Origin: Saccostrea cucullata
Taxonomy: Eukaryota
Reading direction: 5' to 3'
DNA length: 64,000 nucleotides
Assembly: GCF_032062105.1 (NCBI RefSeq)
Contig: NW_026930475.1
Span: 248,001 to 312,000, forward strand
Positions 3,001-9,000 of this stretch are shown here, in pieces. A program made the position numbers. The first letter of the stretch is position 1; every line of letters begins with the position of its first letter.

Positions 3001-6000
3001 TTTTTGTTCGAGATACAAAATTCTTTTAGGTGTTCATATATGATCTATATGTTAGTTTAACATTACCATATGCAACTCACATTCAGGTTCATTTTGTAAA
3101 TGAAAGGAAGATGTCAGACAGACAAGGACAAATATTTATACAATATTTTAATCATGCAGTTCATAAAATACCTGAGGAACTTCATCCATGAAGGACCCCC
3201 AGGCTACGCTCCATACTGCGAGGAAAGATTACGGAGGACATTCGCTAATGGAACCCGAAATCAACCCCCTAGCTGGCTGGAATTACAGGCCACCAAATCT
3301 AAGAAACCTCTCATGCTTCCCATCACTTTCATGGATGGAAACACAAAGACACTGCTGGCTGATTCTGCCACAACAGCCAGGGAGCTCTGTCAACAGTTGT
3401 CAGAAAAAATCGGCCTACGTGATCAGTTTGGATTTTCTCTGTACATCGCATTATTTGACAAGGTTAGTTGAATTTGAAAATTAATATAAATTGTGACCTT
3501 GATTCTGATCTGTGTCTGAGTAACAGGGACAATGGCTGGTCTCTTTCAGGTGTCGTCCCTAGGCAGTGGAGGGGACCACGTAATGGATGCAATCTCACAG
3601 TGTGAGCAGTATGCCAAAGAACAGGGGGCCCAAGAGAGGAATGCCCCCTGGAGGCTTTTCTTTAGGAAAGAAATTTTTGCCCCTTGGCATGATCCTCAAG
3701 AGGACCCCACTGCTACCAATCTCATTTACCAGCAGGTTGTACGGGGCATCAAGTTTGGTGAATATAGATGTGATAAGGTACGCTAAAGAATAACAGGCAA
3801 ATCCAATCTTGTTTTGTTTGTTTTTTTTTGCCCTTCTATGATTTTTTTTTTTTTGCAATATTTTTTAGCACCAACTTTTAAAATGACATGCACTCAACAG
3901 GTCAGATGTCTTTCCATTAAGAATCGTTTTCTTTGAATTTTTTGCATAGGAGGATGACTTGGGTATGATTGCTGCCCAGCAGTATTATATTGAGTATGGC
4001 ACTAGCCCCTCCCCTGAGCGTTTGCAGTCATTGCTGCCTTCGTACATTCCAGACCATGCTTTAAATCGACCAAACGCCATGGACTTCTGGCTCTCAACAA
4101 TATTAAACAAAATGAAGATACCGTACTTTACTAATGAAAAAGTCAGAGCCCAAAAAGTGAAAGAGGATATTGTTAGTTATGCCAAATACAAGTGGCCGCT
4201 ACTGTTTTCTCGTTTTTATGAAGCATACAAATTTGCTGGACCTAGTTTGCCAAAGAATGATGTGATTATTGCTGTGAATTGGACTGGTGTGTATGTAGTG
4301 GACGACCAGGAACAGGTTCTCCTGGAGTTATCCTTCCCAGAAATCACAGCAGTATCCAGTAGTAGGTAAGTAAACCAGCAGGGTTTTATAGGACTTGTTC
4401 TTACAGAGTAGGATCAGGGGCTGTTGTGGAACTGTCTACTGGGCACAACCACCACAAGTTCCTCGCCCTGACTTAATAAGGTAAATGGAAAAATTCTGCA
4501 TTTGACATATGAAGGACAGATTGTATGTGCACACCATTGAAATGATTGAATTTGCCAATGATGACTTGAGAATGGATGGTTGATTATCTTGTATCATCAG
4601 CATATTTTTTATTTGCCTGCCTTCCATTAGAAACTGTTCATAGTATTAATATTTTGTTACTTTACCAAGCGTATAAAATTGATTGAACTGCAATATCTCC
4701 TACACCAGGGATGTGTCAACAAAGTCATTTTGCTGGCCCAACCACCTTTTATTTATGTATTAATCATCAATACCTTGATGTCTCAAAGTTTAATCTTGGT
4801 TCCCATCAAGTGTGGGATAATGGAAACTGATCTTATTTGAAAATCATTAGAATGTTTATAAATTTGATCTTTTTTATCCATTTTATGAGATAATTTATTA
4901 ATTTTTGTTGATTCACTAGATGTTTTACCTTTTAAGTCAGTTCAGAAATGTTTAGCAAAGTGAATGAAAAGTTGATTTGATGTTACCTAACTTATAATTT
5001 GTCAACTTTCAGAACTGGAAAAATGCATGGCCAAAGCTTTACTCTTGCCACAGTTAAGGGAGATGAGTACACGTTTACCTCCCCTAACGCTGAGGACATC
5101 AGGGACCTAGTGGTGACGTTCCTGGAGGGTCTGAAAAAACGCTCCAAATATGTGATAGCTTTACAAGATTACTCCTCCCCAGGTAAGATATAATCAGTGA
5201 TTCTCATTGAAATCGTCTCTGAACTTGATTTCATTCTGAGCGGATTTGTTTTGTAGGAGAGTTTTCCTCTTTCCTATCCTTCAGTGAAATCATTCTGAGC
5301 TGATTTGTAGTCTTCGGTGAAGTCATTTTGAGCTACTTTTTTTTTTTGTAGGAGAAGGTTCCTCTTTCCTCTCCTTCAGTAAGGGAGATCTCATTGTTCT
5401 GGATCAACAGAATGGTGAGACTGTGATGAACTCAGGCTGGTGTATTGGCGAGTGCGTACGTACCAAGAAGAAGGGTGACTTTCCAGCAGAATGTGTCTAT
5501 GTTCTTCCTACCATTACACGACCACCACAAGAAATACTGGTAAGTCACAGGAGCCATTGGGACATATACATGAATCTAAGGGATATAGACAAATACATGT
5601 AGTATAAAAATGTAGTCAACTGCAAATAATTTGATTTAATACAGTATTAAATTTCACAATTATTTGTAGTTCACTAAATTTAAATTTGGAAGAGGAAAGT
5701 AAACTGATTTTATTGTTATATGGTGCATGCTTTAAGGATTTATTTCAAGTAAAAATATAAATTTCACAAGAAATGAAGGGAGACATTTCAAACATTACTT
5801 AGAAACTGGACCTCAGTCAAAGACAACATTGATTTTTGTGTTGTTCTGTAGAACCTGTTTGTGCAGTTGATTTTTGTGTTGTTCTGTAGAACCTGCTTGT
5901 GCAGTTGATTTTTGTGTTGATCTGTAGAACCTGTTTGCTCAGTTGATTTTTGTGTTGTTCTGTAGAACCTGTTTGTCCAGTCGGGTGACCAGACCCTGGC

Positions 6001-9000
6001 CCCCACCCATCAGGAGGTCCCCGAGGACATGACGGCTGAGAAAACCTACACCCTGGAGGAGTACGCACTGGACCACTTCAGGTAACTCAAACACACAGTT
6101 AACTGTTCAGGTAGTTAACTCAAACACACAGTTAACTGTTCAGGTAGTTAATGAAAGTATACAATTAATTGTTCAGATAATTAAAGTACACAATTAATTC
6201 TTCAGGTAATTGATTAAAGCACAGTTGATTATCCAGGTAATTAATTAAAGCACACAGTTAATTATTCAGGTATCTAATTCAAATACAATTTAATTATTCA
6301 GTTACGTAATTCAAGCAGAGGATTTAGAGTTTGAAGAACCTTATGCCCTGTTCACACAGAGAGTTTAATTTGAATTAAATGTAAAGTTACTGCAAATTAG
6401 CTTTGCTTAGCATTCACACGGAGAATTTTATGCGAATTTGTTTAATTCGAATTAGTTTTCTGCACATTAAATTACTTCGCATAAGCTCCGTGTGAACGCT
6501 AAGCGAAGCTAATTCGAATTAAATTTTGAGGCATGCGTAATGGCAAAATTAAGTCAAATACCACATGTCGGCGGTCACCTTCAAGTACTTGTGCTATTTT
6601 TGAGTGAAAAACTAAGTAAAATTGTGTTAATCACTAAAATGTGTTTACAGACTCTGTGACATTATGTCAGATGCATCTGTTTCTGCATAAGGTGACGTGA
6701 TTTGCAAATGACGTCATAATAGCCTTACTGACACCTGACTGTAGAAGTAAAATTTAATTTACATTAGTTTACTTCACATTAGCTGTTGTGTGAACGCAGT
6801 TTAATTTGCATTAGTTTGATTTGCATTAGTTTACTTCGCATTTATTTACTGCGAGTTAAAGTCATCATGTGCACAGGGCATTAGTATCAAGACACAGTTT
6901 ATTCTCGCATAATTACCAGTGTTAGATTGACTTGTCCGGTGTGAGACAGCAGTGTGAGATTTTTCTGTCGTACACTGTGTATTACTACGCCGCGAACGAT
7001 AAAGTAAACATTCCGTCATGATATAAAGAAATTGTAATAATGTTAAAAAATATCACATATTATTAAAATGTTGTCATTTAACTTATTAAAATAAACTTAT
7101 TTTCATTCAAAATATTGTATTTTCACTTTTTAAATGGCACTATATTTAGATCGCGGAAGATTTCTTCTAGAATGAATGTTTACGCTATCGGATAGATAAG
7201 TTTTTTATTCCCAGTTTTAATCTATCTAAGGGGTGTTAAGAAAGTTCGTTCCATGATAAAATATTTTCAAAAATTTAAAAGTAGTGCTTAATTAAAGAGA
7301 TAAATTTTTTTTGTATGACAAAATAATAACAATGTGCTATAAATTTATAGCAATTCATTTCTAGCATAGGCTTTTTCTTCCATATGAAAATATAAAATGT
7401 ATATAACATCTTTAAAGCTCCCGAATGATAGAAATGCTGGTCATTTTGGGTGAAAATTAAGGATAAGTTAATTTTGTTCTCCATAACTTATCTTGCATCA
7501 GGCAAGCTGATGAGCGTAGTTATAAGAACGATTGATTACTTTTCAAAAGAATAGGTTTGTAATTTTGAAATTTTTCACCGACTATATAAGTTTTGCATAA
7601 TATTTAAAAGGATGTGTTGACCTGTGTGTTTAATACATGTTACAAATATGCGTAATCCCTATTTGTTCTGCACAGACATCATCTGTTGTAATACCTACCC
7701 TCCACTTGTTGATTCAACAAAAGGCAGTTAAAACCTTATTAGTAGCAAGAATGGACTACGTAAACATGAAATATCATAAATTGTAACTATCTTATCATCG
7801 TATTTCTTTTCGAAAATAAAAGAAAAATGTGGAATGAACTTTCTTAACACTCTTTAATTAATTAACATGGACTGAAATTCATTTTATTAGTTTACACTAC
7901 GTGTAAACCATATTAATTAAGATACACTCTCTCCGATGGTGTATTTAGATTTTTAATTAGATGGAAAATTAAAAGAATATATTTTTAGCCCTATGGCGAT
8001 GTCATTGACAGGCCGTTATTTTGGATAAAATAATGCGAGAAAAATAATCATTCATCACATACTCGTGTGGGAATAGTGAAATTCCACCTCGGGGCCAAGA
8101 TTTACGGTCTAGGACTCGGCAAAGCCTCGTCCTAGACTGTGAATCTTGTCCCCTCAGTGGAATTTCACTATCCCACACTCGTAGTAATAAATGATTCTAT
8201 TAATCTCATAACGTGAATGTTTAGTGTGATGTCATTACCCTCTATGTCAGTTTCTTGCAACAGCAGAACAAGGATAAGAACTAGTAAGTTTGGACTTTCA
8301 GACCTCCTCCAAAACGTACGTTAAGTAAGACCTTGTCCACAGCAAGGCGAAAAAGACCTGATGAACTGTGGAGGTATTCCAAAGAACCACTGAAACAGCC
8401 ATTGCTGAAAAAACTTCTTGGGCGTGAAGAAATGAGTTCAGAAGCATGCATGGCATTTTTGGATATCCTTTTAACAGAACCATTCAGACTAATTTATTAA
8501 TCAGTATTTTTTTTTTGGCATCTATTAAAGTTTTCTCACCCTCAGGGTTGTCTACAATTTAGAATTTAAACAGAAAATCTTCATTTCTAAACATATAACG
8601 CCAAGAGACCTCTGTACATTTTGTTCCTTAACATTTGCTACCTATTCTGAAATATATGGGGGATCACCCATCTCGGAGAGGAAGAACAGCCAACGAACTC
8701 ACAGATCAAATATTTGAACCACCACTCAGAAGTGTAAGATTTTTTGTTTCTCATTAACATCAAGGGGAGCGGGGTCTATTGTGCAATAAAAGAAAAAGTT
8801 TCCTTCCAGTTTCTCTCATGGATTTATATGTTGTTGATTGTCTTTTCCAGGAGATTCTTAGAGACGAGATTTACTGCCAGATTATCAAACAGCTAACTGA
8901 CAACAGGAATGAGTGAGTGTCTGGCGCTTTTTTCTTAGTATTTCTCACTGCTCCACTTATATTTTGACTGTTCTTTCATTTTTATTTTGAAAATAATGTT

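What the first reader, a model, noticed from the sequence alone, without database searches (positions are those of the whole stretch)
5829..6310. A myosin VIIa exon bracketed by tandem copies of its own splice sites
Seen: exon 5966-6081 is preceded by three extra near-identical 38-bp copies of its acceptor plus the first 15 exon nt (AGs ending at 5851, 5889 and 5927 versus the real 5965). It is followed by about 7 degenerate copies of its donor (ttcAG|GTA...). Each upstream acceptor would give a frameshift or stop, so the spliceosome must skip three almost identical earlier AGs. Inference: either a mutational process that seeds tandem repeats at exon boundaries and is tolerated through exon definition, or a tunable NMD-linked array; also raw material for exon or intron gain.
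Basis: partly seen in the sequence, partly recalled or inferred. Interest (0 to 1): 0.68.

Follow-up and report, generated by a model that had tools for sequence, protein, structure and literature searches.

The report
Splice-site minisatellites flanking a myosin exon
A conserved 116-base exon of a mollusc myosin VIIa gene has short tandem repeats on both sides that copy its own splice signals, most likely harmless by-products of local DNA duplication like those known beside a few human exons.

Summary
A 38-bp x4.0 array (5829-5981, 93% matches, no indels) repeats the acceptor module plus the first 15 exon bases. A degenerate ~33-bp x7 array (6077-6315, 78%) repeats TTCAG|GTA, the exon end plus donor. 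The exon (5966-6081) is a true, conserved myosin VIIa exon. Orthologue alignments enter and leave it residue-contiguously, and the 15 repeated exon bases encode the conserved NLFVQ. The gene is a bivalve-like mollusc's, not a vertebrate's. All decoy sites give stops. Seven ORF fragments from relatives show neither array, so both are lineage-specific. The donor side matches a described kind: minisatellites whose first monomer spans an exon-intron junction (human F7, IFI6, CBS, LMNB2, PDGF; PMC1557585). I found no paper on an acceptor-side array, nor on both arrays around one exon. Best reading: two independent tandem duplications, tolerated because the exon-contiguous copy stays the chosen site. 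No RNA data could be consulted. Interest is modest.

The parts
5352..5539 (+). Upstream exon (SH3 domain), ends in phase 0 with ...PPQEIL, donor CTG|GTAAGT at 5540
   Evidence: Sequence. Pfam SH3_9/SH3_2/SH3_1. 82-88% identity to bivalve myosin-VIIa proteins. tblastn HSPs end at 5539.
5829..5981 (+). 38-bp x4.0 acceptor array. Each unit is TTGAT (branch-point-like), a T-rich tract, ctgtAG, then 15 exon-type bases ending in a second AG. The last unit (5943-5980) is the working 3' splice site plus codons NLFVQ.
   Evidence: TRF. Unit identities 37, 36, 35 and 38 of 38. Unique in the window, 0 of 100 shuffles.
5850..5927 (+). Three decoy acceptor AGs ending at 5851, 5889 and 5927 (adding 114, 76 and 38 nt). 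Secondary AGs end at 5866, 5904 and 5942.
   Evidence: Translation of each extended exon: stops or frameshift in every case. List of AGs.
5966..6081 (+). Conserved 116-nt exon (NLFVQSGDQTLAPTHQEVPEDMTAEKTYTLEEYALDHF + AG of Arg), the linker between SH3 and the second MyTH4 domain. Body GC 63.5% against 28-38% in the flanks.
   Evidence: tblastn HSP 5966-6082, contiguous with neighbouring exons in 3 of 3 orthologues tried. 68-79% identity to seven ORF fragments from relatives. GC values.
5979..5980 (+). In-frame alternative AG 15 nt inside the exon (gtccAG|TCG). Its use would delete NLFVQ.
   Evidence: NLF or xLF is present after the SH3 exon in 27 of 30 orthologues examined, so 5965 is the ancestral site.
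6077..6315 (+). Degenerate donor array, about 8 units of 29-33 bp. Each unit ends in TTCAG (or TCCAG) followed by GTA. The first unit holds the real donor CAG|GTAACT at 6081|6082.
   Evidence: TRF. Direct-repeat families D1 and D3. Unit boundaries and U1-complementarity counts. Unique in the window.
6082..8301 (+). Downstream intron (2220 nt) that holds the donor array, ending ttcAG at 8301.
   Evidence: Sequence. Next HSP starts at 8297.
8302..8462 (+). Next exon ([10 protein letters not shown]...EACMAFL), start of the second MyTH4 region.
   Evidence: Sequence. tblastn 75-81% identity.

Best explanation
Two separate, lineage-specific minisatellites arose by ordinary local tandem duplication (replication slippage or unequal exchange) of short segments that straddled the two junctions of one constitutive exon.

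On the 5' side the duplicated segment ran from the branch-point-like TTGAT (-23) to exon base +15. On the 3' side it ran from about exon base -5 to intron base +28. A tandem duplication across a junction always leaves one copy contiguous with the exon body: the last copy of an upstream array and the first copy of a downstream array. That copy stays the productive site.

The decoys persist because the spliceosome picks the copy nearest the GC- and purine-rich exon core. This would be exon definition or enhancer proximity on the acceptor side, and the 'most upstream site wins' rule shown for human F7 on the donor side. Any leakage to a decoy gives a premature stop, and such transcripts are expected to be removed by nonsense-mediated decay.

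Shown here: the anatomy, the exon's identity and conservation, the non-productivity of the decoys, and the absence of the arrays from the relatives sampled. Inferred: the duplication mechanism, which site is used in RNA, and the reason for that choice.
For: 1. Head-to-tail arrays of exact period with no indels (38 bp), whose end units overlap the junctions.
2. The 15 exon bases inside the 38-bp unit encode NLFVQ. After the SH3 exon, NLF is present in 13 and xLF in 27 of the 30 orthologues where the region could be read. These came from 32 long proteins that I chose among the 120 hits. NLFV is invariant in 7 of 7 fragments from relatives. The repeat therefore copied pre-existing coding sequence, not the reverse.
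3. Orthologue HSPs are residue-contiguous only with 5966 and 6081/6082 as boundaries.
4. Age. The units differ by 1-3 of 38 bases (young). Donor units match at 78%, and 2 of 7 have lost GT.
5. Seven ORF-type fragments from relatives read into both introns ('MDRCCVLQ|NLFVQ...DHFR|YSVIVTM...'). They show a single junction and no repeated unit. Five of the seven extend 4-21 codons past the donor.
6. The two arrays are unrelated. The best local match is an 11/12-mer scoring 19, and 3 of 15 other pieces of the same intron score 20 or 21 against the upstream array.
7. Precedent. Minisatellites whose first monomer spans the exon-intron junction occur in human F7, IFI6 (6-16), CBS, LMNB2 and PDGF. In F7 only the most upstream of 5-9 identical donors is used, and the pseudo-sites are functional but silent (PMC1557585; abstract, introduction, discussion).
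8. Predictions of the same gene in other species show tandem duplications at or beside exon ends. A 7-mer repeat scan flagged 7 of 120 hits. Three of these lie at exon ends: P0001, the 5' part of the SH3 exon with its intron flank, period 51 aa; P0005 (Dreissena polymorpha), 22 aa x3 ending at the same DHFR exon end; P0039 (Bulinus truncatus), 23 aa x2 just after ...DYLSP.
9. Each of the four 38-bp copies carries its own substitutions, which argues against an assembler stutter.
Against: No transcript data could be consulted, so use of 5965 and 6081 rests on protein conservation only.

The acceptor decoys are identical to the real site from -23 to +12 in copy 1 and include their own branch-point-like motif. 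No local sequence model distinguishes them. Simple 5'-to-3' scanning, or intron definition across the short 426-nt upstream intron, would favour decoy 1, so appreciable mis-splicing cannot be excluded.

Two donor decoys (6205, 6236: CAG|GTAATT) match the U1-complementary consensus as well as the real donor, 8 of 9.

Having both arrays on one exon is improbable under random placement: 0.6% per gene with two such arrays, or 0.007% if each may reach at most 20 nt into the exon (approximate exon list). My explanation leaves this coincidence unexplained.

Absence of the arrays in relatives is inferred from translated fragments, not from their DNA.
Confidence: 0.68

Rival explanations
1. Tunable unproductive splicing. 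The decoys are used at a set rate, every such transcript carries a stop and is destroyed by NMD, and copy number sets myosin VIIa output.
For: Every decoy acceptor and donor gives a premature stop. The decoy acceptors are as good as the real site, 35-37 of 38 identical. In two human genes with donor minisatellites (IFI6, CBS) the first two pseudo-sites are used constitutively (PMC1557585, introduction).
Against: The arrays are not seen in seven relatives' fragments. Two of 7 donor decoys have lost GT and the donor array is decaying at 78% matches. In F7 identical pseudo-donors are silent (PMC1557585). There is no sign of selection keeping the decoys intact.
Confidence: 0.12
2. The arrays help splicing. 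Extra U2AF-binding tracts upstream and U1-binding pseudo-donors downstream raise the local concentration of splicing factors, and so strengthen definition of a short exon with a TAG acceptor and a donor lacking +5G, which sits before a 2.2-kb intron.
For: The real donor CAG|GTAACT lacks +5G, and the acceptor is TAG where all 7 relatives' fragments read ...Q|N, which fits CAG. Both arrays sit on the same exon, which is unlikely by chance.
Against: Relatives manage without arrays. There is no experimental or comparative support from any call. The idea rests on recalled work on pseudo-5' splice sites.
Confidence: 0.08
3. Assembly artefact. Copy number, or the arrays themselves, come from mis-assembly of a heterozygous, repeat-rich genome.
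For: Bivalve genomes are repeat-rich (recalled). About 5% of this window is tandem repeat. Copy number in short arrays is error-prone.
Against: All four 38-bp units differ from one another by substitutions, and the donor units are 22% diverged with indels. Artefactual duplications are normally identical. The window has no N.
Confidence: 0.05
4. The arrays belong to a mobile element or satellite that landed next to the exon and only happens to resemble its splice sites.
For: A MITE-like inverted repeat (6350-6526) starts 35 bp after the donor array. The donor unit is AT-rich with AATTAATT motifs, like its surroundings.
Against: Neither unit occurs elsewhere in the 64 kb. The acceptor unit contains conserved coding sequence. 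Both arrays end exactly in the exon. No genome of this species or repeat library was available for a wider check.
Confidence: 0.05

Closest known systems
Human F7 intron 7 37-bp VNTR, with the IFI6 (6-16), CBS IVS13, LMNB2 and PDGF intronic minisatellites (Borensztajn et al. 2006, PMC1557585)
   Same: A minisatellite whose first monomer consists of the last few exon bases plus the start of the intron, so the donor is reiterated downstream. Unit size is similar (37 bp against 29-33 bp). In F7 the monomer takes 4 exon bases; here about 5. The productive site is the most upstream copy.
   Different: Here the copies are degenerate, matching the consensus at 7-8 of 9 positions with two lacking GT, not identical as in F7. 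The host is a mollusc. Usage in RNA and copy-number polymorphism are untested. The same exon also carries an acceptor-side array.
Engineered tandem duplications of acceptor or donor sites (globin constructs cited in the discussion of PMC1557585, its refs 40-42) and 3' splice site scanning from the branch point
   Same: Several identical 3' splice sites compete for one donor. This is the natural counterpart of those constructs.
   Different: The constructs had two copies and gave conflicting results, according to PMC1557585. Here four complete branch-tract-AG modules occur naturally, and the last one must be used to make the conserved protein. My four searches found no paper on a natural acceptor-side array.
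Intron gain by tandem duplication of an AGGT-containing coding segment (Rogers model; Hellsten et al. 2011, PMC3265369, passages read)
   Same: A short intragenic tandem duplication copies splice signals, and the peptide is unchanged if the right pair of sites is used.
   Different: No new intron is created here. Both introns are at positions shared with relatives ('EIL|VS...' in P0001-P0003, '...LQ|NLFVQ' and 'DHFR|Y...' in P0189-P0194). The duplicated segments span existing junctions rather than an exonic AGGT.
Tandem-repeat splicing QTLs in humans (Hamanaka et al. 2023, PMC10078293; search listing and passages seen)
   Same: Tandem repeats near exons whose length can influence splicing.
   Different: Those are statistical associations, mostly with short repeats. 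The passages I saw do not describe repeats that reiterate the splice sites themselves.

Membership tests
Junction-spanning donor minisatellite (F7 IVS7 type) | Head-to-tail array with a minisatellite-sized unit inside the intron | tested here: met
   TRF period 33, 7.1 copies, 78% matches. Boundaries are spaced 29, 33, 33, 29, 31, 33 and 32 nt apart.
Junction-spanning donor minisatellite (F7 IVS7 type) | The first monomer contains the last exon bases and the authentic donor | tested here: met
   TTCAG|GTAACTCAAACA at 6077-6093, against the unit ...TTCAG|GTAGTTAACTCAAACA.
Junction-spanning donor minisatellite (F7 IVS7 type) | [quoted passage not shown] | tested here: not met
   None of the 7 is identical. 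Five keep GT, with 7-8 of 9 matches to CAG|GTAAGT. Two lack GT.
Junction-spanning donor minisatellite (F7 IVS7 type) | Only (or mainly) the most upstream site is used in mRNA; copy number is polymorphic | not testable with these tools
   No RNA or population data were available. Only protein conservation points to 6081|6082.
Myosin VII (MyTH4-FERM myosin) tail | Domain order MyTH4 - RA/FERM - SH3 - MyTH4 - FERM, with close myosin-VIIa orthologues | tested here: met
   Pfam on single exons: MyTH4 and RA_2 (3100-3471), FERM_C1_MyoVII (3950-4369), SH3 (5354-5539), FERM_M (11830-12087). The best named hits are myosin-VIIa or MYO7A-like proteins of bivalves at 82-88%. The motor domain lies outside the window.
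Intron gain by tandem duplication (Rogers/Hellsten) | The duplication creates a new intron, absent from relatives, between duplicated AG|GT sites | tested here: not met
   Both intron positions are shared with relatives' fragments. The arrays lie inside pre-existing introns.
Recursive (ratchet) splice sites | A 3' splice site motif juxtaposed with a regenerated 5' splice site (YnCAG|GTRAGT) in a long intron, used stepwise | tested here: inconclusive
   Five donor units read TTCAG|GTA or TCCAG|GTA, so the bare motif is present. The intron is only 2220 nt, the tracts are AT-rich rather than pyrimidine-rich, and usage cannot be tested.
Short-distance tandem acceptors (NAGNAG-like alternative 3' sites) | Two in-frame AGs a few bases apart, both used | not testable with these tools
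   5965 and 5980 are 15 nt apart and both in frame. Usage is unknown. Orthologues keep the five residues.

The most novel reading that the evidence does not exclude
The exon is a natural two-sided competition assay. If RNA shows exclusive use of the last of four identical acceptor modules and the first of six GT-bearing donors, splice-site choice in this mollusc follows a mirror-image rule in which the copy nearest the exon core wins on both sides. That would extend the F7 donor rule to 3' splice sites and go against plain 5'-to-3' scanning. In addition, duplication across junctions may be a recurrent mutational mode in mollusc genes: three other species' predictions of this same gene show tandem duplications at or beside exon ends. 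Such a mode would feed splice-site turnover and linker-length change.
Probability: 0.25. Interest if true: 0.55.

Novelty: new variant of a known kind. Interest (0 to 1): 0.35.

Why it matters
Identical competing splice sites in their natural context are rare and useful. The human F7 array was used to argue for a positional rule in donor choice. Here one short exon offers the same test for donors. It also offers the less studied test for acceptors, with four complete branch-tract-AG modules of which only the last is productive. Both sit in an animal group where splicing rules are little studied.

If the decoys are silent, this supports exon-centred recognition over scanning or intron definition across a 426-nt intron. 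If they are used, it is a clear case of a gene paying an NMD cost for a young repeat. Practically, such arrays are traps for gene predictors. Predicted proteins of other species appear to read through similar duplications.

Tried and rejected
1. Searching the 38-aa exon with the search for homologous proteins failed because the query was below the 40-aa minimum. I used neighbouring exons there instead. I sent the exon itself to the search of protein representatives, which takes 30 aa or more. It returned 2 hits: one true relative (P0189) and one repetitive 868-aa protein (P0190), which I judged spurious and did not use.

2. A common origin of the two arrays is rejected. The best local match is an 11/12-mer, no better than the upstream array against 3 of 15 other pieces of the same intron. 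One of 500 tiled shuffles also reached it.

3. RNA structure as the discriminator is not supported. The 5790-6030 fold has z = -1.96 and pairs the real AG with decoy 2's AG region, so it hides the real site as much as a decoy. The 6050-6330 fold has z = -2.46, with 2 of 200 shuffles as good. It keeps a 12-bp duplex between the palindromes ACAGTTAACTGT of units 1 and 2, enclosing decoy donor 6110|6111. This follows automatically from a repeated palindrome and explains at most one decoy.

4. Coding potential of the arrays is rejected. All frames that continue from the exon hit stops, and a 33-nt unit used as a cassette would read AGG TAG.

5. Dispersed-repeat origin: no other copy in the window. 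It could not be checked genome-wide.

6. Literature on acceptor-side arrays: four searches found nothing relevant. One further search failed on term syntax. The library lacks most subscription journals, so this is not proof that nothing is in print.

7. Species identification. The best named hit for the fast-evolving GPCR exon is Tegillarca granosa at 46%, and the best unnamed hit is 75%. The species is not in the named set, and I did not try to trace the unnamed records.

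
Full report
WHAT IS THERE

The window has no N and 34% G+C. Its first 13 kb carry, on the + strand, the tail of a myosin VII gene. Pfam on single exons finds MyTH4 and RA_2 (3100-3471), FERM_C1_MyoVII (3950-4369), SH3 (5354-5539) and FERM_M (11830-12087).

The SH3 exon is 82-88% identical to myosin-VIIa or MYO7A-like proteins of the bivalves Dreissena polymorpha, Mya arenaria and Tegillarca granosa. It is about 70-72% identical to fish proteins. That search covered only proteins of 110-2000 residues. 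A fast-evolving exon of the neighbouring adhesion-GPCR gene has Tegillarca granosa (46%) as its best named match and an unnamed record at 75% as its best overall.

I therefore take the contig for a bivalve-like mollusc, not for human or any vertebrate. I left out the step of joining exons into a spliced sequence.

THE EXON

The upstream SH3 exon ends at 5539 in phase 0 (...PPQEIL, donor CTG|GTAAGT). The exon in question runs 5966-6081: phase 0 at the start, and the last two bases AG complete an Arg codon with A at 8302.

tblastn of three mollusc proteins (P0016, P0036, P0005) gives HSPs at 5351-5539, 5966-6082 and 8297-8470. In P0016 the residue numbering is contiguous: 888|889, then 927|926.

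THE ARRAYS

Acceptor side. TRF finds 38 bp x 4.0 at 5829-5981 with 93% matches and no indels, and about 33 bp x 7.1 at 6089-6315 with 78% matches. The 38-bp unit is TTGATTTTTGTGTTGTTCTGTAG|AACCTGTTTGTSCAG. That is 23 intron bases followed by the first 15 exon bases. The copies are 37, 36 and 35 of 38 identical to the exon-contiguous one.

Each unit begins with TTGAT, which fits the recalled branch-point consensus yUnAy. Its A lies 19 nt before the AG, and the sequence between them is T-rich. Whole 3' splice-site modules are therefore reiterated, and copy 1 is identical to the real one from -23 to +12.

Use of 5927 or 5889 shifts the frame. Use of 5851 adds 114 nt in frame but with three stops. 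Use of 5980 would be in frame and remove only NLFVQ.

Donor side. Unit boundaries follow the real donor (6081|6082, CAG|GTAACT) at 6110, 6143, 6176, 6205, 6236, 6269 and 6301.
- Five keep GT: GTAGTT twice, GTAATT twice, GTATCT once.
- Two have lost it.
- Matches to CAG|GTAAGT are 8 of 9 for the real site, 8 of 9 for the two GTAATT copies and 7 of 9 for the rest.
- Every downstream donor would read AGG TAA, an immediate stop.

Both motifs occur only here in the 64 kb, and no shuffle reaches the observed counts.

WHICH CAME FIRST

The five codons inside the 38-bp unit, NLFVQ, are conserved protein. Of 32 long orthologues that I picked from the 120 hits, 30 could be read across this point. Of these, 13 have NLF and 27 have xLF directly after the SH3 exon. 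In seven ORF-type fragments from closer relatives (P0189, P0191-P0196; 68-79% identical over the exon), N, L, F and V are invariant. So the array copied an existing junction. The exon did not grow out of a repeat.

The same fragments read into both introns: 'MDRCCVLQ|NLFVQ...', 'MNVNMFLQQ|NLFVN...' and '...DHFR|YSVIVTMLNLVTLL'. They show one junction each. There is no shifted-frame echo of the exon start upstream. Downstream, the five fragments that extend 4-21 codons past the donor show no repeated unit.

Fragments P0001-P0003 read 'EIL|VS...' after the SH3 exon, as the window does (GTAAGT). The intron positions are therefore shared. Both arrays look lineage-specific. The acceptor array is very young (1-3 differences per unit) and the donor array is older and decaying. 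This inference rests on translated fragments, because no DNA of relatives could be searched.

MECHANISM

A tandem duplication of a segment that spans a junction leaves one copy joined to the exon body. For an upstream array this is the last copy, and for a downstream array the first. That is exactly the arrangement here, on both sides.

For donors, this situation is described in print. Borensztajn et al. (PMC1557585; I read the abstract, introduction and discussion) list human genes in which a minisatellite's first monomer spans the exon-intron junction: F7, IFI6/6-16, CBS, LMNB2 and PDGF. For F7 they show that 4-8 identical pseudo-donors are functional but silent, and that the most upstream site wins. 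In IFI6 and CBS the first two pseudo-sites are also used.

For acceptors, I found no natural counterpart in four searches. The same paper notes that engineered duplicated sites gave conflicting results.

Nothing in the local sequence separates the real acceptor from decoy 1. What differs is what follows. The decoys are followed by the next T-rich unit. The real site is followed by an exon body of 63.5% G+C with purine-rich runs, against 28-38% in the flanks. I therefore infer that the site is fixed from the exon outward (exon definition or enhancer proximity), and that NMD clears any leakage. This is inference. Plain scanning, or intron definition across the 426-nt upstream intron, would predict decoy 1.

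RIVALS

A maintained NMD rheostat is weakened by the lack of conservation and by decoys that have lost GT. A splicing-helper role has no support beyond the coincidence of two arrays on one exon. An assembly artefact is unlikely because every unit has its own substitutions. A mobile-element origin is unlikely because the units are unique in the window and one contains conserved coding sequence. RNA folding gave no useful discrimination. The two arrays are not related to each other.

CHANCE

About 5% of the window is tandem repeat. Exons are dense: about 23 in 11.8 kb, by my approximate list. A randomly placed array of these sizes covers some acceptor in 29% of trials and some donor in 45%. Both junctions of the same exon are hit in only 0.6% of trials, and in 0.007% if each array may reach at most 20 nt into the exon.

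For a whole genome that is not extraordinary, but for one gene it is a coincidence that my explanation does not account for. It may be relevant that predictions of this gene in other species also carry tandem duplications at exon ends. The 7-mer scan flagged 7 of 120 hits:
- P0001: the 5' part of the SH3 exon with its intron flank.
- P0005 (Dreissena): 22 aa x3 ending at the same DHFR.
- P0039 (Bulinus): 23 aa x2 right after ...DYLSP.
- P0109 (Timema): a 10-aa array inside an exon.
- The other three are unrelated repeats.
These are predicted proteins, so this is a lead and not a result.

VERDICT

The donor half belongs to a known kind. The acceptor half, and the two-sided arrangement, are a variant for which I found no description. 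The most likely explanation is ordinary: young junction-spanning minisatellites that are tolerated. The decisive evidence, junction usage in RNA and copy-number variation, could not be obtained here. Supplementary files of the papers were not consulted, and they might list further junction-spanning repeats.

Noticed in passing
window 8463-8641 (+): The intron two junctions downstream looks like a U12-type AT-AC intron. The donor is G|ATATCCTTT at 8463. The window's only TTCCTTAAC lies at 8624-8632, 8 nt before the terminal AC (8640-8641). Splicing there joins ...AFL-A-ILKYMGD, which fits the orthologue HSPs. The consensus motifs are recalled.
   Followed up: partly
window 34337-34345 (+): GTATCCTTT, a U12-type donor-like motif, lies at the end of the last mitochondrial-carrier ORF piece (...LGPWNVI|). 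This may be a second minor-class intron in the neighbouring gene. No matching branch motif was found with the exact 9-mer.
   Followed up: no
window 6350-6526: A MITE-like inverted repeat (41-nt arms at 85% complementarity; outer GTTCACACAGAG / CTCCGTGTGAAC) starts 35 bp after the donor array. Related TTTAATT-rich short arrays lie at 6753-6842.
   Followed up: partly
P0005 (Dreissena polymorpha), P0001 (unnamed), P0039 (Bulinus truncatus), P0109 (Timema poppense): Predicted myosin VIIa proteins of other species carry tandem duplications at or next to exon ends. Dreissena has 22 aa x3 ending at the same DHFR exon end. P0001 has the 5' part of the SH3 exon duplicated with its intron flank. Bulinus has 23 aa x2 after ...DYLSP. 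Timema has a 10-aa array inside an exon.
   Followed up: partly
window 61081-62445: A large 39/40-bp satellite (about 27 copies, followed by further blocks, 77-87% matches). It gives long spurious ORFs with no Pfam match.
   Followed up: no
window 17309-17462 and 18364-18501; ORFs 16354-20423: (CGAAA)n and its complement (GTTTC)n form an inverted pair about 900 bp apart. Nearby + strand ORFs include one with a weak DUF7869 match (E = 4e-5, below the curated cut-off). This is probably a transposon remnant between the myosin and carrier genes.
   Followed up: partly
window 1-641: A 145/160-bp tandem array (4.4 copies, 79-94% matches) lies upstream of the first myosin exon seen in the window. It contains a perfect 24-bp x2.4 sub-repeat.
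   Followed up: no
window 24300-34400 (+) and 38700-53250 (-): Neighbouring genes. One is a mitochondrial carrier (Pfam Mito_carr on two exons). The other is an adhesion GPCR of the ADGRA type, with Ig and a weak HRM match, a 7TM region, and a 766-aa open frame covering the 7TM and cytoplasmic tail. Its best named relative is from Tegillarca granosa.
   Followed up: partly
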